The notes: generated by a model not told the origin, from the sequence alone. A DNA stretch of 64,000 nt from an uncultured Actinomycetota bacterium (GCA_963752715.1 CAVVZQ010000005.1:10030-74029); one strand, 5' to 3'; positions 8,613-29,530 are shown, counted from the stretch's first letter. A program made the numbers and translations.

Positions 8613-10316
8613 CTACTGGTACGACACGAAGTCGGGTGTCGGCTTCACAGTCGTCATGGTCCGCTCGGGAGTGAAGGTCGGCTGGTCCTCGTCGATGAAG
8701 TTCTTCCAGCCCCAGAAGAACGTCTCCTCGGCATCGGCGGTCAGGTAGTCGTAGGTCTCGAACTTCTCCGAGGGCGTCCCGAAGCCGTCCACGTGAATGA
8801 GCACCGCGACCTGGTCGACGTCGGTCTTGAGCTGGTCGCGGTCGGAGATCATGGCGATCCGGAACTGGTGCACCACCAGCAGCTTCTGCGGGATGTCATT
8901 CTCGGTGACCAGGTTCGCCAGGTAGTCGACGACCTCGTTGACCTCCTCGGCGGTGACCGAGCCGATCCGGGTCAGCGGCAGCTCGTCCGGTCCGATGTGC
9001 CACTCGGGATCCAGCGCCAGCCCGACGTTGGGCATCAGGAGGAGCTCCTCGTACAGCTTCGCCTGCTCGAGGAAGCTGGCGCGGCCGGGCTGCAGGTCCA
9101 GGACCGCGTACATGCCGGCCTCGTCGGCCGCCTCGACCCACGGCCGAATCAGCTCGATGTCGGACTCGTTGGAGTAGTTGCCGTCCGAGCCTGCTTCGCG
9201 TGCGGCGATCGTGGTGATGATCTCGAACGAGGGGATCACCGGGACATCGCTGAACGGCTCGTACTCCGCCGCCAGATCCGCCGCTCGGTCGACCGCTCCC
9301 TCGACGTCCGTCTCGCCCATCACGCCGAGCGCCGGGACGCCCGGGTGACCGTACAACGCGACCATGAGGCGGCCGGGCAGCACGAGCTTGCCTCCGCCGG
9401 GAAGCTCGGCACCGTTGGCGGCGACGTCGAGCCGGTAGTCGAAGGACTCCTGTGAGCCGAACCCGTCGCCGAGTGCGAGAACCGCCGTCGGCTCCGTCTC
9501 CTCCAGCGCGGTGATGATGCCGGCATTCCCCCGCGGGTCGTAGCCGGCCATCACGGTCACGTCGGCACCGGCGGCGCGTGAGGTGGCGGCCGCAGCCGCG
9601 GGGACGGTGCCTGCCTGGGCGGACGCCAGCACGAGCACGTCGGTCACCGGGTCCGGGAGCTCGGTAGCCGGGAGCGCCGCTTCCGCGGACGCGCCCGTCG
9701 CGGCGGGTTCTTCCGAAGCGGGGCCAGGGGAGGGTTCGCCTGCCTCGGTCTGGGACTCCGACGGGGACCCGGGGGACTCGGCGGCGGGCGCCTGGACTGT
9801 CAGCAGCGTCGACCCACCGGGAGTCAGGGCGGCGATCTCAGTGACCAGGTCCGCCTCCGCGACCGGCGTCATCTGGTAGGACCCCTCGTGGCCAGTCACG
9901 CTGGCCAGTTCGGAGGGGTCGTCGGGGGCCGGTACGACGTCCAACCCGCCGATCTGCTCCGCCCAGGACACACCCGCACCTCCGACGGCGAGGACGGTGT
10001 CCGCGTCCAGCCTGTCCAGCTCCACGTCCGCGGCGTCGGAGGCCACCAGGACCGGTACGCCGAGCGAGACGGCCAGCGACGCGGCGCGCGCCTGCGAGTC
10101 GAGGTCGTCGCCGGTCACCACGACGACCGAGGCCTCCTCGAACAGCGTGGCCGCGGTGGCGGCGGCAAGGGAGCCTGCGTCCGTACCCGGCACCACGGCT
10201 GTGGCGGCGGGATCGGCGACGGTGGCTTGTTCCGGGTCAGGGTCGGAGGAACAGGCCGCCAGGGCAAGTGAGCCGACGACGGCCAGACCAGCGACGCGCA
10301 GCGTCAGTGTTCTCAT
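8613..10316 (-). CDS. Conserved actinobacterial lipoprotein with uncharacterised C-terminal domain
   Basis: Lipobox LALAAC, acidic/Pro-rich linker, C-terminal ALYGHPG, LDLQPGR, LALDPEW, HVDGFG, WGWKNF. Confidence 0.75.
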   Translation of the reverse strand: MRTLTLRVAGLAVVGSLALAACSSDPDPEQATVADPAATAVVPGTDAGSLAAATAATLFEEASVVVVTGDDLDSQARAASLAVSLGVPVLVASDAADVELDRLDADTVLAVGGAGVSWAEQIGGLDVVPAPDDPSELASVTGHEGSYQMTPVAEADLVTEIAALTPGGSTLLTVQAPAAESPGSPSESQTEAGEPSPGPASEEPAATGASAEAALPATELPDPVTDVLVLASAQAGTVPAAAAATSRAAGADVTVMAGYDPRGNAGIITALEETEPTAVLALGDGFGSQESFDYRLDVAANGAELPGGGKLVLPGRLMVALYGHPGVPALGVMGETDVEGAVDRAADLAAEYEPFSDVPVIPSFEIITTIAAREAGSDGNYSNESDIELIRPWVEAADEAGMYAVLDLQPGRASFLEQAKLYEELLLMPNVGLALDPEWHIGPDELPLTRIGSVTAEEVNEVVDYLANLVTENDIPQKLLVVHQFRIAMISDRDQLKTDVDQVAVLIHVDGFGTPSEKFETYDYLTADAEETFFWGWKNFIDEDQPTFTPERTMTTVKPTPDFVSYQ

Positions 10317-10555
10317 TACCCACCTCAGACAGGACGTGTCGCCGGAATTCAGTTCAGGCTACGGGGGAGACCGGGCGGAATCGCGCGCCACGCGAAGAGC
10401 ATCCGCTGTCGTGCGGCGCGGTCGACGGGGATTGTTCGCTCCGACCGCCTCGAGATGCCGCCGTCGGTGATTGGGAGCACGATAGAGGCCCCCGATCAGT
10501 CTGATCAGACCTGCTCAGCCCGATCACACCCAGAACCGCCCGTACGGAGGCAGTG

Positions 10556-21244: not shown

Positions 21245-22588
21245 GTGTTCGACACCGTGCTCATAGCCAACCGCGGCGAGATCGCCTGCCGCATCATCCG
21301 AACCTGCCGCGAGCTCGGAATCCGCTCGGTGGCCGTTCACAGCGAGGCGGACGCTTCCGCGCTGCATGTACGGATGGCGGACGAGGCGGTCCTGATCGGT
21401 CCTCCGCCCGCCCCACAGTCGTACCTGCAGGCGGAGACCATCATCTCTGCGGCTCGCGACACCGGAGCGCAGGCGATCCACCCCGGGTACGGCTTCCTGG
21501 CCGAGAGCGCCCACTTCGCCCGTCTGGTCGCGGAGGCGGGACTGGTGTGGGTGGGCCCCTCGCCGGAGTCGATCGAGGCGATGGGGGACAAGATTGCTGC
21601 CCGCAACGCGATGGCCTTCGCGGGCGTGCCGGTCGCGCCGGGCACCGAGGAGCCCGTGCATGACCTCGAATCCGCGGTGAAGGCCGGACTCGGCATCGGC
21701 TATCCCCTGATGGTGAAGGCGTCTGCCGGCGGTGGCGGAATCGGCATGTCCGTCGTGTCGTCGGAGGCGGACCTCAGGAAGGCATTCGAGACGGCCCGTA
21801 CCCGTGCGGAGCGCTTCTTCGGGTCGCCCTCGATCCTGCTCGAGCGCTACATCCCGGATGCCAGGCACGTGGAGGTACAGATCCTCGGGCTGGCCGACGG
21901 GCGGATCCTGGCTCTCGGGGAGCGCGACTGCTCCGTACAGCGCCGTCACCAGAAGCTGCTCGAGGAGACACCCTCTCCCGCGGTCAGCCACCAGCTGCGG
22001 GAACGGATGCTCACCGCGGCGGTGCGGGCGGGGGAGGCGGTCGCCTACCGCAACGCCGGCACGGTCGAGTGCCTGGTGGACCCCGCGACCGAGGAGTTCG
22101 TGTTTCTCGAGATGAACACCAGGCTGCAGGTCGAGCACCCGGTGACGGAGCTGGTCACCGGCATCGACCTGGTCGCGGAGCAGCTGCGGGTGGCCGCCGG
22201 TGAGCCTCCCGGGTTCGACCCGGACTCGCCGCCCTCACCGCGCGGACACGCGATCGAGATGCGCATCTACGCCGAGGACCCGGTGCGCTTCCTGCCGGGC
22301 CCGGGGACGATCAGCAGCTGGAGGCCGCCGACCGGCGAGGGTGTCCGGCTGGATACCGGGTACGTCGAGGGCGACACCGTCACGCCGTTCTACGACCCGT
22401 TGATCGCCAAGCTCTGCGTCCACGGAGCTGACCGCGAGGAGGCGCTGCAGCGGGCGTCGCAGGCGGTTGCCTCCTTCGAGATCCACGGCCCGAAGAACAA
22501 CCTGCCCTTCTTCGCTGAGCTGCTCGCCTCTCCGGAGTTCCGCGCGGGCTCCTACACCACCTCGGCAGTGGAACGGCTGCGTCGCTGA
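21245..22588 (+). CDS. Stand-alone biotin carboxylase
   Basis: LIANRGEIA, HPGYGFL, GGGGIG, RDCSVQRRHQK, EMNTRLQVEHPVTE; no fused biotinyl domain. Confidence 0.93.
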   Translation: MFDTVLIANRGEIACRIIRTCRELGIRSVAVHSEADASALHVRMADEAVLIGPPPAPQSYLQAETIISAARDTGAQAIHPGYGFLAESAHFARLVAEAGLVWVGPSPESIEAMGDKIAARNAMAFAGVPVAPGTEEPVHDLESAVKAGLGIGYPLMVKASAGGGGIGMSVVSSEADLRKAFETARTRAERFFGSPSILLERYIPDARHVEVQILGLADGRILALGERDCSVQRRHQKLLEETPSPAVSHQLRERMLTAAVRAGEAVAYRNAGTVECLVDPATEEFVFLEMNTRLQVEHPVTELVTGIDLVAEQLRVAAGEPPGFDPDSPPSPRGHAIEMRIYAEDPVRFLPGPGTISSWRPPTGEGVRLDTGYVEGDTVTPFYDPLIAKLCVHGADREEALQRASQAVASFEIHGPKNNLPFFAELLASPEFRAGSYTTSAVERLRR

Positions 22589-22666
22589 GGGGCGGAAGGT
22601 TTCCGGCGTGGTGAACTGAGACGCTTGAGCAACCGATGTCTGAGAGCGCGAGGGGAGGTGGCCGCA

Positions 22667-22885
22667 ATGGCTGAGGAGCTGCGGGCCGAGATGGTGGCCA
22701 ACGTGTGGAAGGTGCTCGTCGCGCCGGGCGACGCGGTCGACGAGGGAGACACCGTCGTCATCCTGGAGTCGATGAAGATGGAGATCCCCGTGCTGACCGA
22801 GAGCGCCGGTACCGTCAGCACGGTCGAGGTCTCGGAGGGTCAGACGGTCCAGGAAGGTGACCTCATCGCCGTCGTCGACGACTGA
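22667..22885 (+). CDS. Small biotin/lipoyl carrier protein (Rv3221c-like)
   Basis: AEMVANVWKV...LESMKMEIPV biotinylation motif; GGAGG SD. Confidence 0.92.
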   Translation: MAEELRAEMVANVWKVLVAPGDAVDEGDTVVILESMKMEIPVLTESAGTVSTVEVSEGQTVQEGDLIAVVDD

Positions 22886-22903
22886 GCGGGCTGGCGGCGT
22901 CGC

Positions 22904-23764
22904 TCACACGTCGAGCAGGTCCTCTCCCCGAGCCCCGCTCCACTCGCGCAGGCGCTCGTACAGCTGGGTCCTGCGGAAGTACCGCGAGTCGTACGCCAGC
23001 CGCAGGTCCTTCTCGATCAGCTTGGGGTGGTACGCGCTCGGCGGGCGCTTGGCGAAGCCGCACTCCCGCAGCGCGTAGGCGAGCAGCTCCACCATGTCGT
23101 GTCCCTGGCACAGCAGCGCGGGGTCGTAGTCCTTGCGCAGCTCTGCGACCAGCATCCGACCCACCTGGTCGAGACTGGCCGTGGTCCGGGAGCGGGCGTG
23201 GACGTCCCTCAGGTAGCGCATCGCGTCGAAGCGCAGCGCAGTCGGCTCGACATATCCCGACACCGGAAGCTTCGCGAACCTCAGACCCAGGTCTTCCCTG
23301 CTGTTGATCAGGCGCAGGGTCGCCGACGGACGACACCGGTCGTAGAGCAGGTCGCGGAGGGAGGGGAACGGTCCGGCCTGGTCGAGGAAGGCCTGCAGGC
23401 GGTCCGGGTCGGCATGCTCGGCCAGCACGGCATCCAGCGCGCGGCTGGCGATCAGCATGGCCTCGAGGTCGTGGGCGTCGGTGACGACGACGTCGGAGGG
23501 TGGCGCTCGATGGTCGAGCCACCAGAAGTCGGTGTCGACGACCGCCACCGCGCCGCCGAGCCGGGCCTTCTGCCGCCGTGACATGACCACCAGGACTCCG
23601 CGCTTGCCCTGGCAGGGCTGCACCATTCCGGAGTCGGGGTCGACGAACCGCTCCAGCACGGCGCGGTCTGTGTCGCCCTCGACGAGGACCCAGGTTCCCG
23701 TGAAGGTCCGGCGCAGCATCCGCATGGACGCGATGACGTCGTCCGGAGTGAGATGGCGCCTCAC
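22904..23764 (-). CDS. TOPRIM/DUF4435-like nuclease, PARIS AriB-like
   Basis: VLVEGDTD, VVDTDF (DxD), TDAHDLE, CQGHD; GTG 23764 overlaps the ATPase stop. Confidence 0.78.
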   Translation of the reverse strand: MRRHLTPDDVIASMRMLRRTFTGTWVLVEGDTDRAVLERFVDPDSGMVQPCQGKRGVLVVMSRRQKARLGGAVAVVDTDFWWLDHRAPPSDVVVTDAHDLEAMLIASRALDAVLAEHADPDRLQAFLDQAGPFPSLRDLLYDRCRPSATLRLINSREDLGLRFAKLPVSGYVEPTALRFDAMRYLRDVHARSRTTASLDQVGRMLVAELRKDYDPALLCQGHDMVELLAYALRECGFAKRPPSAYHPKLIEKDLRLAYDSRYFRRTQLYERLREWSGARGEDLLDV

Positions 23765-25173
23765 GCGTCGGGCCCATCTACCGACCGTGCGCCTGGCCGG
23801 GCGTCGGGGTTCTCCGGCTCGTCGGGGTCGTAGCCCTCGTCCTCCCCCTCCAGATCGACGGTCAGGTCCCAGTGGGTGTGCACGATCTGGGGCGAGTGCG
23901 TGGCGATCAGGAAGTCCAGCCCCCGGACCGCGCCGGTGCGGATCAGCCCGTCCACCACCGCCTGCTGCCAGGCGATGTGCAGCGAGAGCTCCGGCTCGTC
24001 GATGAGAACGAGGCTGCCTTCGTCGACCTCGAACAGCAGGGCGCACACCAGGACGAGCAGGTGCTGCTCCCCGGAGGACAGCGACGACAGCGGTACGGAC
24101 TCGCCGCTGGCCAGGCGCACGGTGAGACCCTGTTCCCGGTCCATCGCCAGACGCTTGCCGAGGAAGGTACGGCCGGCGCGAGCCTGCAGGATGCCGAAGA
24201 GTGCCTCCAGTCGTTCCCGCACGTCGTCGAAGGCTGCGAGCTTGGCGTCGGAGTCCTGCAGGTAGGTCCACAGCACCCGGCGCTCCGCCTCGTCGAGGGG
24301 ACGTACGGGCAGCGCGATCGGCTCGAAGGAGTCGATCAGCGAGAACTCGTGGAGTCGGGTGAAGTGCTCGCTCTGCTGGGCGAAGCGGGCGCGCAGCTCG
24401 GTCTCCGACGGTGGCGGCGCCTCCTGGTTGAGCACCCGGCTCGGAAAGGTGCGGTCGAGCGAGCCCGCCGCGTCGGCGTAGCGTCGCTGGGCGTCCCGGA
24501 TGCTGCGCAGGATGAGGTTGGAGTACCAGGTGACTGCCGGCATCCAGCCCGAGTAGCTCACGTCCTCGAACCGCGTCTGTGGCTCCCAGACGATGAGGCG
24601 GTCGGCACCGATCAAGCGACAGGGGACGCCGTCGATGATCTCGGAGAGCCAGTCGGGCTCGTCGAGCAGCCGACGCAGGATCGGGACCGCCTCGGGGTGT
24701 CGGGCCAGCAGGGCGTTGGTCGTCATGGAGTGCCCCGTACGACGGTCCAGCCACTCCTCGGGTCCGGTCTGGGCCAGGTAGGGGTTGGCCTCGGTGACCC
24801 GCGCCCACGTGGCAGCACCTGCCTCGGGGAGATGCGTGGGCTGCCACACCTTGACGTCCCCGCCCGTGGGGTCGCTGAGCTCGACGGACATGTCACCGTG
24901 GGTCTCGGCCCCGGCCGCGGTGAGCTCGGCGGGAGCGTGGTTGTGCACCACGAGCCGGCGCCCGTCGTCCAGCCGGACCTCGAAGCGCCGTACGGGTGCT
25001 CTCGCGACCGCACCCCAAGCGCCCCGCAGGACGTTCTCCACCAGGTTCAGAAGGGTGGTCTTGCCCAGCCCGTTGGCCCCGTGCAGGATCGTGACCCGTT
25101 CGTCCAGGTTGAGGGCGAGCTCGAAGTCGAACTCGTCGTACATGCCGTCCACGGCCAGGCCTGCTACGCGCAC
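23761..25173 (-). CDS. ABC-type ATPase (AAA_21/AAA_15-like), PARIS AriA-like
   Basis: Walker A HGANGLGKTT, long helical insert, signature LSSGE, Walker B LIDEPE, H-loop ATHS; no permease partner. Confidence 0.85.
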   Translation of the reverse strand: MRVAGLAVDGMYDEFDFELALNLDERVTILHGANGLGKTTLLNLVENVLRGAWGAVARAPVRRFEVRLDDGRRLVVHNHAPAELTAAGAETHGDMSVELSDPTGGDVKVWQPTHLPEAGAATWARVTEANPYLAQTGPEEWLDRRTGHSMTTNALLARHPEAVPILRRLLDEPDWLSEIIDGVPCRLIGADRLIVWEPQTRFEDVSYSGWMPAVTWYSNLILRSIRDAQRRYADAAGSLDRTFPSRVLNQEAPPPSETELRARFAQQSEHFTRLHEFSLIDSFEPIALPVRPLDEAERRVLWTYLQDSDAKLAAFDDVRERLEALFGILQARAGRTFLGKRLAMDREQGLTVRLASGESVPLSSLSSGEQHLLVLVCALLFEVDEGSLVLIDEPELSLHIAWQQAVVDGLIRTGAVRGLDFLIATHSPQIVHTHWDLTVDLEGEDEGYDPDEPENPDARPGARSVDGPDA

Positions 25174-25253
25174 GCCAGCCTCCTCACGCCTTTGCCGGGT
25201 CGTCGCCCAAGGCGCGCCGCACTGTGACGGGCACCCCGGGGCTCTCCGTCACC

Positions 25254-26174
25254 CTAGAAGGCGATGCCCGAGGCTGCGAGGCCACCGCCGGCGGCCAGGC
25301 CCCCGACGAGAGCCACGCCGACTGCGAGGGCGGCCACCCGTACGGGTGCTGCACGTCGTGCGCGTGCCTGGCGGCGTCGCTCCCGCTCGGCGACCTCGGA
25401 GAGCGCGCCGAGCAGTCTCTCGGCGTCGGGGCGCTGGGCTGGGTCGGCCGCCATCGCGCTGCGCAGCAGAGGAGCGATCGGCGCGGGGACGTGCGCCAGG
25501 TCGGGCTCGGAGTACCGCACCCGGTCCAGCACCTCGAACGTGGGCCCGCTCCCGTACGGGTTGCGGCCGGTGGCCGCGTAGGCCACCACCCCGGCCCAGC
25601 CGAAGATGTCCGCGGCGGAGGTGGCCCGCTGCCCGCTCATCAGCTCGGGGGCAGTCCAGCCGGGAGAACCCATCACGACGTCGGTAGAGGTGATCGGCTC
25701 CGCCTGGGTCGGCTGAACGATCCCGAAGTCGATCACCACGGGACCGCGCTCGGCGAGGATCACGTTGTTGGGCTTGAGGTCGCGGTGGACCATGCCGGCG
25801 CCGTGGACCGCGGCGAGGGCGTGAGCCAGCCCGGTGGCGAGGGACAGGAGCTCGTCGAGCTCCAGCGCTCCAGCGGTCTTGAGTCGCTGCTCGATAGTGG
25901 GGCCGGAGACGTACTCCATGGCCAGGTACGGCGTGGGGGCATCGGGGTCCGCGGCGAGGAGCCGGGGCGTGTGCGGCCCGGTCAGGCGGGCCAGCGCCTC
26001 GACCTCGCGGGCGAACCGGCTGCGAAAGTGAGCCTGCCGCTCGAGCGGGGTACGCAGCACCTTCACCGCCACAGCAGAGCCGTCCTGCGTGACCGCCAGC
26101 CAGAGGACACCCATTCCGCCGGTCGCGAGCCTGCGGGTGAGGGTGTACCCACCGAGGCGCGTGCCCTCGGTCAT
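25254..26174 (-). CDS. Hanks-type Ser/Thr protein kinase with C-terminal membrane anchor
   Basis: LATGGMG, VAVK, FARE, HRDLKPNN, DFG, WTAPE, ADIF, RP; RRQARARR then a hydrophobic tail. Confidence 0.93.
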   Translation of the reverse strand: MTEGTRLGGYTLTRRLATGGMGVLWLAVTQDGSAVAVKVLRTPLERQAHFRSRFAREVEALARLTGPHTPRLLAADPDAPTPYLAMEYVSGPTIEQRLKTAGALELDELLSLATGLAHALAAVHGAGMVHRDLKPNNVILAERGPVVIDFGIVQPTQAEPITSTDVVMGSPGWTAPELMSGQRATSAADIFGWAGVVAYAATGRNPYGSGPTFEVLDRVRYSEPDLAHVPAPIAPLLRSAMAADPAQRPDAERLLGALSEVAERERRRQARARRAAPVRVAALAVGVALVGGLAAGGGLAASGIAF

Positions 26175-26460
26175 CGGCCGACCCCATTCGTCCGCCCGGC
26201 CTGATGGACGTCCCCGGTCAGCCCGGTCAGCCGGGTCAGCCCCGTCAGCCGGGTCAGCCCCGTCAGCCGGGTACCGCTCGCCGGACAGGAGACCGACAGC
26301 AGAGGCCCGCACCGCGCTCGCTGCGGCCGCGTCGGGGCGAGTCACCTCGACGGGAGCAGGGCGATTAACGGTGTTCACAAGGACATAACGCCGCAGGGAG
26401 GTGTGATCACTCCCCGCATTGATGAGATCTTGGACACGTCGCCCCCCGCTTGCGCAGACG

Positions 26461-26736
26461 CTAGGACGACACAGCCACCACCCCGTGCTGCGAGCAGCGG
26501 GCCTCCCAGCCCCGTGGAACCACCTGGACCACCATGCGCCGTCGGCACCGGTGGCAGTAGCGGGGTGGCTCCAGTCGCAGCGCAGCCTCGCAACGGTCGT
26601 GGGCGGGACTGCGTCCAGCGTGAGTGGGTACGGCGTGAGTGGGCTCACCGCAGCGGGGGCACCAGGTACCCGGCAGGTCGACCTGCCCGTCCTCGGCCGT
26701 GGTCTCTGGCTGGTCTCCGTTCCTGAGCTCGCCCAT
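26461..26736 (-). CDS. bsaP: Biotin synthase auxiliary protein BsaP-like
   Basis: WCPRCG...[34 protein letters not shown]. Confidence 0.82.
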
Positions 26737-26801
26737 GTAGGCAGGCTAGATCCGGCGCGGCCGTGCAGTGGGCTTCTCGGGGTGCGGCATAGGCTCACGG
26801 C

Positions 26802-27845
26802 ATGCGGATGGACCTCGTTCTCGAAGGCGGCGGCGTCAAGGGCATAGCCATCGTGGGGGCACTGTCCGTCTTCGAGGAGCACGGATTCGTGGTCAACCGG
26901 GTGGCGGGCACGTCGGCGGGCGCGATCGTCGGCTCGCTCGCTGCCGCGGGCATGTCCGTCGGCCGGATGACCGAGGTCATGAAGACGCTCGACTTCCGCA
27001 AGTTCATGGACCGAGGCCGCCGCAAGGTGCCGGTGGTCTCGGAGGGTGTCTCGCTGATGCTGGACCAGGGTGCGTTCTCAGGCGCCTACGCCCGGGACTG
27101 GGTCCGGGAGATGCTCTCCGAGCAGGGTGTTGCGACCTTCGGCGACCTGAGGCTGGCGGAGGATCGGGCCGAGCCCGCCGCGGAGCTGCCTCCCGAGCAG
27201 CGCTACAAGCTGGTCGTCATGGCGGCCGACGTCACCCAGCGTCGCCTGGCACGCCTGCCCTGGGACTACCGCCAGCACTACGGCCTCGACCCGGACGCGG
27301 TATCCGTGGCCGAGGCGGTGCGGGCGTCGATGTCCATCCCGTTCTTCTTCGAGCCGGTGCGGCTGAGCTACGAGCGCTCCCGGCCCGACGTACCCGTGGA
27401 GGCGGCGGAGTCCGTCCTGGTGGACGGAGGTCTGCTGTCCAACTTCCCGGTCGAGAGCTTCGACCGCGCCGATGGCGCCCCGCCGCGCTGGCCGACCATC
27501 GGGATCAAGCTGTCCTCCCCCGGGGGCAGCCGCGACATGTTTCCCAGCATCGCGCCAGGTCCCCTGGGGCTGGCCTTCGACCTGCTCTCCACCATGGTCG
27601 ACTCCCGCGACAACCAGATCTCGCAGCGCGCCGACGTGCTGTCGCGGACCGTGTTCGTGGACACCTCGGGCGTGGCGATCACCAACTTCAACCTCAAGCA
27701 GGCGGACAAGGACCGGCTGTTCGACAACGGGCGCACGGCCGCCACGGAGTTCCTGTCCTCCTGGGACTTCTGGGCCTATGTCCAGGACTACCGCACGGGT
27801 CCGCTCAAGGCGCTGAGTCACGTGCCGCTGGCCGAGGACGCCTGA
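26802..27845 (+). CDS. Patatin-like phospholipase
   Basis: EGGGVKG, GTSAG, ASMSIPFFF, DGGLLSNFP. Confidence 0.93.
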   Translation: MRMDLVLEGGGVKGIAIVGALSVFEEHGFVVNRVAGTSAGAIVGSLAAAGMSVGRMTEVMKTLDFRKFMDRGRRKVPVVSEGVSLMLDQGAFSGAYARDWVREMLSEQGVATFGDLRLAEDRAEPAAELPPEQRYKLVVMAADVTQRRLARLPWDYRQHYGLDPDAVSVAEAVRASMSIPFFFEPVRLSYERSRPDVPVEAAESVLVDGGLLSNFPVESFDRADGAPPRWPTIGIKLSSPGGSRDMFPSIAPGPLGLAFDLLSTMVDSRDNQISQRADVLSRTVFVDTSGVAITNFNLKQADKDRLFDNGRTAATEFLSSWDFWAYVQDYRTGPLKALSHVPLAEDA

Positions 27846-27897
27846 GCGAGCTGGCACCCGCGATCCGGCGTTGGGTCCGCGATCAGGTCCGCGATCA

Positions 27898-27937
27898 GGT
27901 CCGCGAAACGGACACGAAACGGGCCATTTCACGGACC
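27898..27937. repeat. 40-bp palindromic (REP-like) element, copy 2, preceded by 12-bp tandem duplications
   Basis: GGTCCGCGAAACGG-N12-CCATTTCACGGACC; arms extend with GATCA/TGATC; GGTCCGCGATCA repeated from 27874. Confidence 0.75.
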
Positions 27938-27983: not shown

Positions 27984-28523
27984 TCAGTCCCGGCTGAAGA
28001 ACTGCCCGTAGACGATGAGGTCGACGCCGGCCCGGGGTGACCAGTCCCGCTCCGGAAGTCGCTGGAAGCCGAGCCGCTCGTAGAGCCGGTGGGCGGCGGT
28101 CATGCCCGGCATCGAGGACAGCACCAGGGCGGACGCACCGGCCCGCCGAGCCCGATCGAGACACTCCCGGACCAAGCTCGCTCCGACGCCCTGGCGGCGC
28201 GCCTCGGGGGCGACAGCAAGCATGCGAAAGACCGCCTCGTTCTCCCGGCCCACCTCCGCCACCGGCGAGGGCCAGAGAGCCAGCGCCACCGCACCGACCA
28301 CCACGGCGTTCTCGCCCAGGGTGGCCACCAGGATCTCGGCGTGGCGGGCACGGCCCGCGACGTCGGCGAGAGCCTGCGCGTACTCCTCGTCGCCGAAACC
28401 GTCGCCGAGGTATCCCCGCAGCGTCACATCGCGGACGGCGTCGTGGTCGAGCGGTGTGGCGTCGCGCACCCGTACGGTGCCGGTGCTCGCTGCCGCGGCC
28501 GACTGCCCGTGGTGGCTGCTCAG
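27984..28523 (-). CDS. GNAT family N-acetyltransferase
   Basis: [25 protein letters not shown]; start GTG 28469 or CTG 28523. Confidence 0.88.
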
Positions 28524-29530
28524 AACGTCTCCGAGAGCGCCTTGATCGGCATGCCCAGGTCGCGCAGCATCGAGATGTCCTCCTCGGCCGGCCGCCCCAG
28601 AGTGGTGAGGTAGTTGCCCACGATGACTGCGTTGATGCCCCCGGAGAGCCCCCGGTCGGCCAGGTCGCCGAGAGTGATCTCGCGGCCACCGGCGTAGCGC
28701 AGGATCGTGCGCGGCAGCGTCAGCCGGAACGCGGCCACGGTGCGCAGCGCCTCCTCCGGAGACATCACGTCGAGGTCCTCGAACGGTGTGCCGGGTCGGG
28801 GGTTGAGGAAGTTGAGTGGAACCTCGTCCGGGTCCAGTGACGCGAGCTGGGCAGCGAACTCGGCACGCTGGGCGAGCGTCTCGCCCATCCCGACGATGCC
28901 GCCGCAGCACACCTCCATGCCTGCCTCCCGGACGTACCGCAGCGTCTCGAAGCGCTCCTCCCAGGAGTGGGTGGTGACGACCTGGGGGAAGAAGGTACGT
29001 GCGGTCTCCAGGTTGTGGTTGTAGCGGTGCACGCCCATGTCCCGCAGCTCCGCGGCCTGCTCCTGGCTGAGGATGCCCAGTGAGCAGGCGACATTGATCT
29101 CGACAGCCGCATGGATCGCTGCCACGCCGTCCCGTACCTGAGACATCAGCCGCTGGTCCGGGCCGCGGACGGCAGCCACGATGCAGAACTCGGTCGCGCC
29201 GGTGGATGCGGTCTGCTCGGCGGCGCGGACCAGGTTGGGGATGTCCAGCCAGGCGGAGCGAACCGGGGAGGAGAACACCCCCGACTGCGAGCAGAAGTGG
29301 CAGTCCTCCGGACAGCCGCCGGTCTTCAGGCTGACGATGCCCTCGACCTCCACCTCGGGGCCGCACCACCGCATGCGTACCTCGTGAGCGAGCTCGAGCA
29401 GCTCGCCGAGCCGCTCGTCGGGGAGCTCGAGGACCTCGAGGCACATCGCCTCGTCCAGACCCTGTCCCTGCTCCAGCACGCGCGTGCGCGCCACGTCGAG
29501 GACGCCGGTCTTCTCGATGATCTCGGTCAC
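28520..29530 (-). CDS. bioB: Biotin synthase
   Basis: [11 protein letters not shown] radical-SAM motif, [27 protein letters not shown]. Confidence 0.97.

What the first reader, a model, noticed from the sequence alone, without database searches (positions are those of the whole stretch)
22904..26174. Candidate three-gene system: membrane Ser/Thr kinase plus PARIS-like pair
Seen: an intact Hanks kinase, anchored by a C-terminal hydrophobic tail with no extracellular sensor, ends 80 bp before the ATPase on the same strand. A lower-GC promoter-like patch (26360-26435) lies upstream of all three. Known: Ser/Thr kinases act in phage defence (Stk2, PglW) but are not part of described PARIS. Inference: phosphorylation may gate or trigger the ATPase-nuclease complex. 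This is the best candidate for a new system here, resting on adjacency only.
Basis: inference. Interest (0 to 1): 0.72.

Follow-up and report, generated by a model that had tools for sequence, protein, structure and literature searches.

The report
PARIS-like defence pair beside unrelated kinase
The ATPase and nuclease genes are a divergent copy of the known two-gene PARIS anti-phage system, and the membrane kinase next to them is a neighbour found only in this lineage, not a shared third part.

Summary
They are a 306-aa tail-anchored Hanks kinase (25254-26174), a 470-aa ABC ATPase (23761-25173) after an 80-nt gap, and a 286-aa DUF4435/Toprim protein (22904-23764) whose GTG start overlaps the ATPase stop.

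The ATPase and nuclease are full-length structural homologues of PARIS AriA (Z 23.8) and AriB (Z 13.8). The pair recurs as a self-contained module: DUF4435 lies directly downstream in 77 of 80 loci from many bacterial and archaeal phyla.

The kinase does not travel with it. None of the 72 loci with more than 1 kb of upstream DNA has a kinase there. Three further genomes of the same phylum also lack one. None of 89 loci holding the kinase's nearest homologues has the pair. No neighbour family recurs in more than 4 of 80 loci. Kinase-pair adjacency was seen only in three near-identical relatives (93-96% nucleotide identity), where shared ancestry explains it.

The kinase's PD-T4-6 "defence" hit is non-specific. 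Co-transcription remains untested.

Verdict: an ordinary, divergent PARIS member beside a lineage-specific kinase. Low interest.

The parts
22904..23764 (-). AriB-like DUF4435/Toprim nuclease gene (286 aa, P0003). Its GTG start overlaps the ATPase stop codon (GTGA).
   Evidence: PF14491 E 2.3e-7. PADLOC AriB PDLC02983 E 1.5e-10, covering positions 5-220 of 236. AlphaFold model pLDDT 96.3. Best solved match is AriB 8v46_D/8ux9_A: Foldseek E 1e-4; VIA Z 13.8, 248-258 residues aligned, next best Z 7.7. Acidic residues E29, D33, D77, D79 and D99 are invariant across 35 homologues.
23761..25173 (-). AriA-like ABC ATPase gene (470 aa, P0002). GTG start preceded by GGAGG.
   Evidence: AAA_21 E 2e-18 and AAA_15 E 1.7e-12. 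PADLOC AriA E 2.6e-25. Family profile against PDB: AriA 8ux9_B E 2e-30, PtuA 1.8e-15. Model against AriA 8v45_F: Z 23.8, 345 residues aligned, next best PtuA-type ATPases at Z 16.2 or less. Walker A GxxGxGKT, LSSGEQ, DEPE and ATHSP are invariant across 29 sequences.
25174..25253 (-). 80-nt spacer between the kinase stop and the ATPase start
   Evidence: Sequence read. No terminator-like site. RNA fold no better than shuffles, z -0.35. No Rfam match. Its first 57 nt (as far as the two relatives' fragments were aligned) show 2 differences from relatives L093/L094.
25254..26174 (-). Tail-anchored Hanks-type Ser/Thr kinase gene (306 aa, P0001). A neighbour, not a conserved part of the pair.
   Evidence: Pkinase E 8e-32. 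Catalytic motifs and C-terminal hydrophobic segment 278-306. Nearest solved relatives are M. tuberculosis PknA at 1e-35, then StkP and PknB. Coding-type GC3 begins near 26170.
26169..26344 (-). About 180 nt present here but absent from close relatives. It lies between the low-GC patch and the kinase ATG and holds a 9/18-nt tandem repeat at 26213-26272.
   Evidence: blastn breakpoints at 26168/26333. Joint 26164>26345 in a relative's DNA contig. TRF result. Alignment A4. GC3 is not coding-like, 0.67-0.77.
26360..26435 (-). Lower-GC intergenic patch upstream of the kinase. A possible promoter region, unverified.
   Evidence: About 57% G+C in the 90-nt block 26343-26432. Conserved in L093/L094. 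No sigma-70-type match.
26461..26736 (-). bsaP (biotin synthase auxiliary protein, 91 aa). A housekeeping gene upstream on the same strand that marks the edge of the locus.
   Evidence: NCBIfam NF052237, 76.3 bits against a cut-off of 39, E 1.3e-21.

Best explanation
Two separate things lie side by side.

(1) Genes 23761-25173 and 22904-23764 are a divergent member of the two-gene PARIS (AriA/AriB) anti-phage family. The following mechanism is inferred from homology to the solved E. coli system, not shown here. The ABC ATPase assembles into a scaffold that holds the Toprim nuclease inactive. A phage protein binding the ATPase, together with ATP turnover, releases the nuclease. The nuclease then dimerises and cuts host tRNA, stopping translation and aborting the infection.

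(2) The upstream gene 25254-26174 is an intact, tail-anchored Hanks-type Ser/Thr kinase. It is an accessory gene of this lineage and is not a conserved component of the pair. It may or may not be read through into the pair, but the pair works as a self-sufficient module in every other genome examined.
For: **The pair is PARIS-like**
- Family profile against PDB puts AriA first (E 2e-30, against 1.8e-15 for PtuA).
- ATPase model against AriA: Z 23.8 over 345 residues, next best Z 16.2.
- DUF4435 model (pLDDT 96.3) against AriB: Z 13.8 over about 250 of 286 residues, next best Z 7.7.
- PADLOC AriA and AriB hits.
- ATPase motifs and Toprim acidic residues are invariant.

**The pair is a self-contained module**
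- The DUF4435 start overlaps the ATPase stop.
- DUF4435 lies directly downstream in 77 of 80 loci from many bacterial and archaeal phyla. The three exceptions are one contig end, one degraded locus and one with no hit.
- No neighbour family recurs in more than 4 of 80 loci, and those that do are syntenic cyanobacterial groups.
- The family was found in only 4 of 401 sampled genomes of the phylum, G000 included. This sporadic spread is typical of mobile defence genes.

**The kinase is not part of it**
- 0 of 80 loci has a kinase directly upstream; 72 have more than 1 kb of upstream DNA.
- 0 of 3 further pairs in the same phylum has a kinase within about 1.4 kb. Two of these, G041 and G126, are unpublished genomes.
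- 0 of 89 loci of the kinase's nearest homologues holds the pair; 51 have at least 600 nt downstream.
- No fused long forms were found, which is weak evidence.
- The PARIS paper describes two proteins in 11 clades; its kinase passages shown (T4 polynucleotide kinase as a reagent, one adenylate-kinase reference) do not concern the system (passages read).
- The kinase's PD-T4-6 hit (2.5e-57) is matched or exceeded by 5 of 6 control kinase domains (1e-61 to 1e-140); the sixth scored 2.8e-50, slightly weaker.
Against: - The kinase is on the same strand only 80 nt upstream. No terminator was detected and no significant hairpin, so co-transcription is possible.
- Adjacency is kept in all three close relatives seen (L093, L094, and a 4080-nt DNA contig in run X5). 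At 93-96% nucleotide identity, shared ancestry explains this.
- Like the pair, the kinase is an accessory gene. No orthologue was found in 40 genomes of the same order (best 45-46% identity), and the next best in the large protein collection is 49%. The two could have arrived together.
- In G000 only 9 Pkinase genes lie in 2.93 Mb, so chance adjacency at one given locus is a priori rare, about 0.6% for either flank. That figure is my own estimate and assumes about 2,800 genes.
- Two independent cyanobacterial loci (L024/L051 and L054) have a different kinase just downstream of the pair.
- The defence function and tRNA target of this divergent pair are inferred, not shown. AriB identity is only 14-15%.
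Confidence: 0.78

Rival explanations
1. The kinase, ATPase and nuclease form one three-gene defence system in this lineage. The membrane-anchored kinase senses infection at the envelope and phosphorylates the ATPase-nuclease complex to gate or trigger it.
For: - Same strand, 80-nt gap, no terminator-like site.
- Adjacency is retained in the close relatives L093, L094 and the X5 contig.
- Both the kinase and the pair are accessory genes wedged between housekeeping biotin genes.
- Contigs from two RNA libraries (X7, X19) lie on pieces of the kinase and the ATPase, and X19's also on the nuclease. DNA carry-over is not excluded.
Against: - 0 of 80 (72 informative) plus 0 of 3 homologous pairs have an upstream kinase.
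- 0 of 89 kinase-homologue loci have the pair.
- No recurrent third gene and no fusion found.
- Translational coupling links only the ATPase and the nuclease. The ATPase has its own GGAGG site.
- The kinase carries no defence-specific signature.
- PARIS as described needs only two proteins.
Confidence: 0.07
2. The kinase is an independent single-gene defence kinase (PD-T4-6- or Stk2-like). It sits with PARIS in a small defence islet but acts on its own targets, not on the pair.
For: - Best PADLOC family is PD-T4-6 at E 2.5e-57, covering almost the whole 292-position profile.
- It lies next to a defence module.
- It has an accessory distribution, with no orthologue in 40 genomes of the same order.
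Against: - All 6 control kinase domains hit the same PD-T4-6 models at 1e-50 to 1e-140; 5 of them as well or better, one (2.8e-50) slightly weaker.
- NCBIfam scores are far below the cut-offs for MAD6 (125 against 460) and PglW (59 against 990). Generic AfsK and PknB models score as well.
- The rest of the window is housekeeping, with no defence island.
Confidence: 0.09
3. The ATPase-DUF4435 pair is not an anti-phage system. It could be another OLD/Toprim-type module, for example one used for repair or plasmid maintenance, that merely shares a fold with PARIS.
For: - Sequence identity to the solved AriA and AriB is low: 18-19% and 14-15%.
- phmmer and the DUF4435 family profile do not reach AriB in the PDB by sequence.
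- The locus is not in a defence island.
Against: - Both partners match AriA and AriB over their full lengths, well above every other family.
- The gene order and overlap are those of ariA-ariB.
- The pair is sporadic and its contexts vary across phyla.
- PADLOC AriA and AriB are the best or only hits.
Confidence: 0.04

Closest known systems
PARIS (AriA/AriB) of E. coli B185; PDB 8ux9, 8v45-8v49; PMC11464382
   Same: - A two-gene module with the ABC ATPase first and the DUF4435/Toprim nuclease second.
- Similar sizes: 470 and 286 aa here, against solved chains of 464 and about 305.
- Full-length fold matches: Z 23.8 and Z 13.8.
- ATPase motifs and Toprim acidic residues are conserved.
   Different: - Only 14-19% identity in the structural alignments.
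- Sequence searches with the nuclease do not reach AriB in the PDB.
- The host is a high-GC actinobacterium and the locus is chromosomal among biotin genes, not in a P4-like satellite.
- The trigger and the tRNA target are unknown.
- I could not test whether this clade is one of the 11 published clades, because I did not consult the paper's supplements.
Septu and retron-type PtuA ATPases with HNH PtuB (PDB 8ee4, 8eea, 9e8z)
   Same: The ATPase head is of the same AAA_15/AAA_21 family. These are the second-best matches: profile E 1.8e-15 and Z 16 or less. Many PADLOC PtuA hits cover the C-terminal lobe only.
   Different: The partner here is a DUF4435/Toprim protein, not an HNH nuclease. NCBIfam PtuA scores 58 bits against a cut-off of 500. 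The matches cover less of the protein than AriA does.
OLD-family nucleases and Gabija GajA (PDB 6p74, 6nk8, 8jq9)
   Same: The same pairing of an ABC ATPase with a Toprim nuclease. OLD C-terminal regions are the next-best fold matches for the nuclease, at Z 6.5-7.7.
   Different: In OLD and GajA the two domains are fused in one polypeptide. Here they are two genes, and the scores are far below those for AriB.
Actinobacterial Hanks kinases (M. tuberculosis PknA, PknB, PknE); defence kinases PD-T4-6, BREX PglW, MADS MAD6
   Same: A canonical Hanks catalytic domain with all motifs. PknA is the best solved relative at E 1e-35. PD-T4-6 and mad6 models are hit.
   Different: There is no extracellular or extra cytoplasmic domain, only a terminal membrane anchor. 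The defence-model hits are non-discriminating or far below the curated cut-offs. That PD-T4-6, Stk2 and PglW act in phage defence is recalled knowledge. I saw only search listings that name them.

Membership tests
PARIS (AriA/AriB) | AriA: an ABC ATPase of the AAA_15/AAA_21 type with intact Walker A, signature, Walker B and H-loop | tested here: met
   PF13304 at 2e-18 and PF13175 at 1.7e-12. G32/N34/G35/G37/K38/T39, S366-Q370, D392-E395 and A424-P428 are invariant or nearly so across 29 sequences.
PARIS (AriA/AriB) | AriA full-length architecture (ATPase head plus helical insertions) like the solved AriA | tested here: met
   Model residues 1-445 align to AriA 4-443 with Z 23.8, rmsd 4.2 and 345 residues. 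The next family is at Z 16.2. Profile E 2e-30 against AriA. Model pLDDT is only 79, with weak stretches at 198-208 and 445-470.
PARIS (AriA/AriB) | AriB: a DUF4435 protein with a Toprim nuclease core and conserved acidic residues | tested here: met
   PF14491 at 31.2 bits against a cut-off of 27. PADLOC AriB at 1.5e-10. E29, D33, D77, D79 and D99 are invariant across 35 sequences. AriB is the top fold match at Z 13.8, against 7.7 for the next.
PARIS (AriA/AriB) | ariA directly followed by ariB on the same strand, as one unit | tested here: met
   4-nt GTGA overlap. DUF4435 directly downstream in 77 of 80 homologous loci.
PARIS (AriA/AriB) | [quoted passage not shown] | not tested
   No complex prediction was run. 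Inferred from homology only (PMC11464382 abstract and passages).
PARIS (AriA/AriB) | Anti-phage activity triggered by a phage protein, with tRNA cleavage by released AriB | not testable with these tools
   This needs phage assays and RNA analysis.
Hanks-type Ser/Thr protein kinase (PF00069) | Gly-rich loop, catalytic Lys, HRDxKxxN, DFG and APE motifs | tested here: met
   PF00069 at 111 bits against a cut-off of 31.7. Motifs at residues 19, 38, 130, 149 and 175.
PD-T4-6 (single-gene defence kinase, PADLOC) | A specific match to PD-T4-6 models beyond what any Hanks kinase gives | tested here: inconclusive
   P0001 scores 2.5e-57. All 6 control kinase domains hit the same models: 5 score 1e-61 to 1e-140, one 2.8e-50. 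The models do not discriminate.
BREX PglW / MADS MAD6 kinases | A score above the NCBIfam curated cut-off | tested here: not met
   PglW 58.6 bits against 990; MAD6 125.4 bits against 460.
Septu PtuA | A PtuA equivalog score and an HNH partner (PtuB) | tested here: not met
   NF041760 at 58 bits against a cut-off of 500. The partner is DUF4435/Toprim.

The most novel reading that the evidence does not exclude
In this one actinobacterial lineage a tail-anchored Hanks kinase has been recruited to a PARIS module and is co-transcribed with it. It couples an envelope or membrane signal of phage attack to phosphorylation of AriA or AriB, giving PARIS a second, host-encoded trigger or brake. The two independent cyanobacterial loci with a kinase just downstream of the pair would then hint at repeated recruitment of this kind.
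Probability: 0.06. Interest if true: 0.7.

Novelty: new member of a known kind. Interest (0 to 1): 0.15.

Why it matters
The locus adds a divergent, high-GC actinobacterial member to the PARIS family. The wider family of about 450-aa ATPases with about 290-aa DUF4435 partners spans many bacterial and archaeal phyla. Such distant members could help define which parts of AriA and AriB are universal and which are tuned to different phage triggers or tRNA targets.

The result also shows that adjacency alone misled here: the proposed kinase-gated system fails the recurrence test. If the kinase were nevertheless linked, it would be the first PARIS with a host signalling input. The evidence gives that low odds.

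Tried and rejected
- **RNA read-through.** I laid contigs of two metatranscriptome runs (X7, X19) and two DNA runs (X3, X5) on 22000-27900. RNA-library contigs lie on parts of the kinase and the ATPase, and X19's also on the nuclease. No listed RNA contig bridges 25174-25253. Contigs cannot show transcript ends, DNA carry-over is possible, and lack of cover proves nothing, so this says nothing either way about co-transcription.\n- **Synteny in relatives.** The genome has no close relative among the species representatives; the nearest are of the same order. Kinase homologues there (11 loci) and patatin homologues (10 loci) have no bsaP, BCCP, kinase or pair beside them within about 1.5 kb. I therefore could not tell whether the kinase and the pair were inserted together.\n- **Composition.** GC3 is 0.88 for the kinase and 0.90 for each of the pair genes, against 0.83-0.92 for the neighbouring genes measured in frame. 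There is no sign of recent foreign origin for either.\n- **Fused forms.** A search for proteins longer than 823 aa with the ATPase found none. The tool itself calls this weak evidence.\n- **More distant ATPase relatives.** P0005 and P0006 (84-85% identity, on contigs of 4034 and 1734 nt) could have shown whether the kinase is kept at greater distance. No kinase of 50-90% identity is on record, but I could not fetch those contigs, so this stays open.\n- **Cyanobacterial kinases.** 4 of about 25 cyanobacterial loci (my count from the record titles) have a kinase within 6 kb. Those genomes carry 48-88 Pkinase genes each. That predicts roughly 3 such loci by chance (my arithmetic), so I rejected this as enrichment. 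L024 and L051 are the same syntenic locus.\n- **RNA elements.** No Rfam match in 22500-27000, and no significant structure in the spacer.\n- **Sequence search with the nuclease.** Neither P0003 nor the A2 profile reaches AriB in the PDB. The best hits are de novo TIM barrels and RNase M5, and are weak. Only the fold comparison linked it to AriB.\n- **Complex prediction.** I did not run kinase with ATPase or nuclease. An enzyme-substrate pair chosen on adjacency alone is outside what that test resolves well.\n- **Literature.** Searches, and passages of PMC11464382, turned up no PARIS variant with a kinase. One search returned only noise. I did not read the supplements of the PARIS papers, and these could show whether this clade is already catalogued.
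Full report
**What is there.** The window is about 70.6% G+C. On the minus strand of the flagged region I read three genes.
- A 306-aa kinase (26174 down to 25254).
- A 470-aa ATPase (25173 down to 23761), after an 80-nt spacer. It starts at GTG, preceded by GGAGG.
- A 286-aa protein (23764 down to 22904) whose GTG start overlaps the ATPase TGA (GTGA).

Pfam assigns Pkinase (E 8e-32), AAA_21/AAA_15 (2e-18 and 1.7e-12) and DUF4435 (2.3e-7, above the gathering score). The kinase has every Hanks motif. Its only strongly hydrophobic segment is the last 29 residues, 278-306, preceded by an Arg-rich stretch, so the tail-anchor description holds. GC3 shows that kinase coding begins near 26170 and that the long upstream open frame is not coding.

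**The surroundings.** This is not a defence island.
- Downstream and convergent are a biotin carboxylase and a BCCP gene.
- Upstream on the same strand is a 91-aa gene that NCBIfam identifies as bsaP (76 bits against a cut-off of 39).
- Further upstream are a divergent patatin gene, then bioB, bioD and a wax-ester synthase gene.
- The rest of the 64 kb is housekeeping: PEPCK, 2-oxoglutarate dehydrogenase, ArgRS, LysA, homoserine dehydrogenase and others.
- GC3 of the three genes (0.88-0.90) falls within the range of their neighbours measured in frame, 0.83-0.92.

**What the pair is.**
- PADLOC's best hit for the ATPase is AriA (2.6e-25). Its only hit for the DUF4435 protein is AriB (1.5e-10, nearly the full profile).
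- A profile of 29 ATPase homologues finds AriA of the solved PARIS complex first (E 2e-30), well ahead of PtuA (1.8e-15).
- The ATPase model (pLDDT 79) aligns to AriA over residues 1-445 with Z 23.8 and 345 residues. The next family, the PtuA-type ATPases, reaches Z 16.2.
- Sequence searches with the nuclease do not reach AriB. Its model (pLDDT 96.3) has AriB as the top two matches by Foldseek (E 1e-4) and by VIA-align (Z 13.8, 248-258 residues of 286; next best OLD C-terminal regions at Z 7.7).
- Walker A, the signature motif, Walker B and the H-loop are invariant in the ATPase family. The Toprim acidic residues E29, D33, D77, D79 and D99 are invariant in the nuclease family.

The pair is thus a remote but full-length homologue of PARIS. 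Its mechanism is inferred from the E. coli system (PMC11464382, abstract and passages). There, AriA holds AriB, a phage trigger releases it, and the AriB dimer cleaves tRNA and stops translation.

**Does the kinase belong to it? Starting from the ATPase.** I tested recurrence from both sides, beginning with the ATPase family.
- The species-representative genome collection had at least 592 matching stretches. The best 80 loci returned come from Actinomycetota, Cyanobacteriota, Chloroflexota, Planctomycetota, Acidobacteriota, Bacillota, Proteobacteria, Bacteroidota, methanogenic archaea and others.
- With profile HMMs, DUF4435 lies directly downstream in 77 of 80. The three exceptions are a contig end (L064), a degraded locus (L051) and one with no hit (L041).
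- A kinase HMM hits six loci, and none is directly upstream of the ATPase. L024, L051 and L054 have it downstream. L071 has a kinase-helicase fusion about 4 kb upstream on the opposite strand. L079 has a fragment 5.5 kb upstream. L033 has a weak hit downstream on the opposite strand. Of the 80 loci, 72 have more than 1 kb of upstream DNA.
- Clustering all flanking ORFs found no family that recurs in more than 4 of 80 loci.
- In a sample of 401 genomes of the same phylum, the ATPase family occurs in 4, G000 included. The three others have the pair and no kinase within about 1.4 kb. Two of these three are unpublished genomes, G041 and G126.

**Does the kinase belong to it? Starting from the kinase.**
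- No orthologue turned up in 40 genomes of the same order (best 45-46% identity, all in much longer open frames). In the large protein collection the next best is 49%.
- Its 90% cluster has five members and the ATPase cluster has four. Contig lengths (11395 and 36139) suggest shared contigs.
- The metagenome scan returned two near-identical relatives (L093, L094). Both are collinear with the window at 93-96% nucleotide identity and carry kinase then ATPase. A 4080-nt DNA contig in run X5 shows the same.
- None of the other 89 kinase-homologue loci (78 metagenomic, 11 genomic) has an ATPase or DUF4435 hit. Of these, 51 have at least 600 nt downstream.

The adjacency was thus found only in this lineage, where descent explains it.

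**Is the kinase a defence kinase in its own right?** Its best PADLOC family is PD-T4-6 (2.5e-57). Four other kinase domains of this genome and two from related genomes all hit the same models: five score as well or far better (1e-61 to 1e-140) and one slightly weaker (2.8e-50). NCBIfam scores for MAD6 and PglW are far below their cut-offs, while generic AfsK and PknB models score as well. The nearest solved relatives are M. tuberculosis PknA, StkP and PknB. Nothing marks this kinase as defence-specific.

**What stays open.**
- The 80-nt spacer has no terminator-like site, no significant fold and no Rfam match. Read-through from the kinase into the pair is possible.
- Metatranscriptome-library contigs touch the kinase and ATPase (one run's also the nuclease), but none bridges the spacer, and contigs cannot settle this.
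- With 9 Pkinase genes in 2.93 Mb, chance adjacency at a given locus is rare, but the locus was picked because of the adjacency.
- The cyanobacterial cases amount to 4 of about 25 loci with a kinase within 6 kb, three of them independent. This fits the 48-88 kinases per genome found there.

**Verdict.** The pair is a divergent member of a known two-gene defence family. The kinase is a lineage-specific neighbour, and the three-gene system fails its own stated refutation test. I give about 0.78 to this reading, 0.07 to a true kinase-gated system, 0.09 to an independent defence kinase and 0.04 to a non-defence role for the pair.

Noticed in passing
window 26461-26736 (-): A 91-aa zinc-ribbon-like ORF is the biotin synthase auxiliary protein BsaP (NF052237). 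It is separated from bioB (28520-29530) by a GNAT-domain ORF and a divergent patatin gene, so the biotin cluster is interrupted here.
   Followed up: partly
window 26169-26344, repeat at 26213-26272: About 180 nt holding 6.7 copies of a 9-nt unit (equally 3.2 copies of an 18-nt unit) lie in frame with the kinase, just before its ATG. The stretch is absent from relatives L093, L094 and the X5 contig, where the kinase starts at a GTG right after the low-GC patch. It is either a variable 5' leader or an N-terminal extension. Its GC3 suggests it is non-coding.
   Followed up: partly
L024 8858-10825, L051 8018-9925, L054 8519-10282 (all +): Three Nostocales loci have a roughly 590-650-aa Hanks kinase just downstream of the PARIS-like pair on the same strand. 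L024 and L051 are syntenic (78% identical kinases). The L054 kinase is unrelated at 31% identity. Given 48-72 kinases per genome this fits chance, but only 80 loci were sampled.
   Followed up: partly
L071 1-2043 (-): A Coleofasciculus locus has a kinase fused to an AAA_11/UvrD-like helicase N-terminal region about 4 kb upstream of the pair, on the opposite strand.
   Followed up: no
L065 5998-8340 and 10310-12534: One Phototrophicaceae genome carries two ATPase-DUF4435 pairs in tandem within 6.5 kb.
   Followed up: no
L186 2796-3056 and 3038-3694 (genome G126, unpublished): The DUF4435 gene after the ATPase is split between two reading frames, so it is probably frameshifted.
   Followed up: no
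window 8613-10358 (-): A 581-aa ORF with coding-type GC3 (0.88) has no Pfam family at E 1e-5 or better.
   Followed up: no
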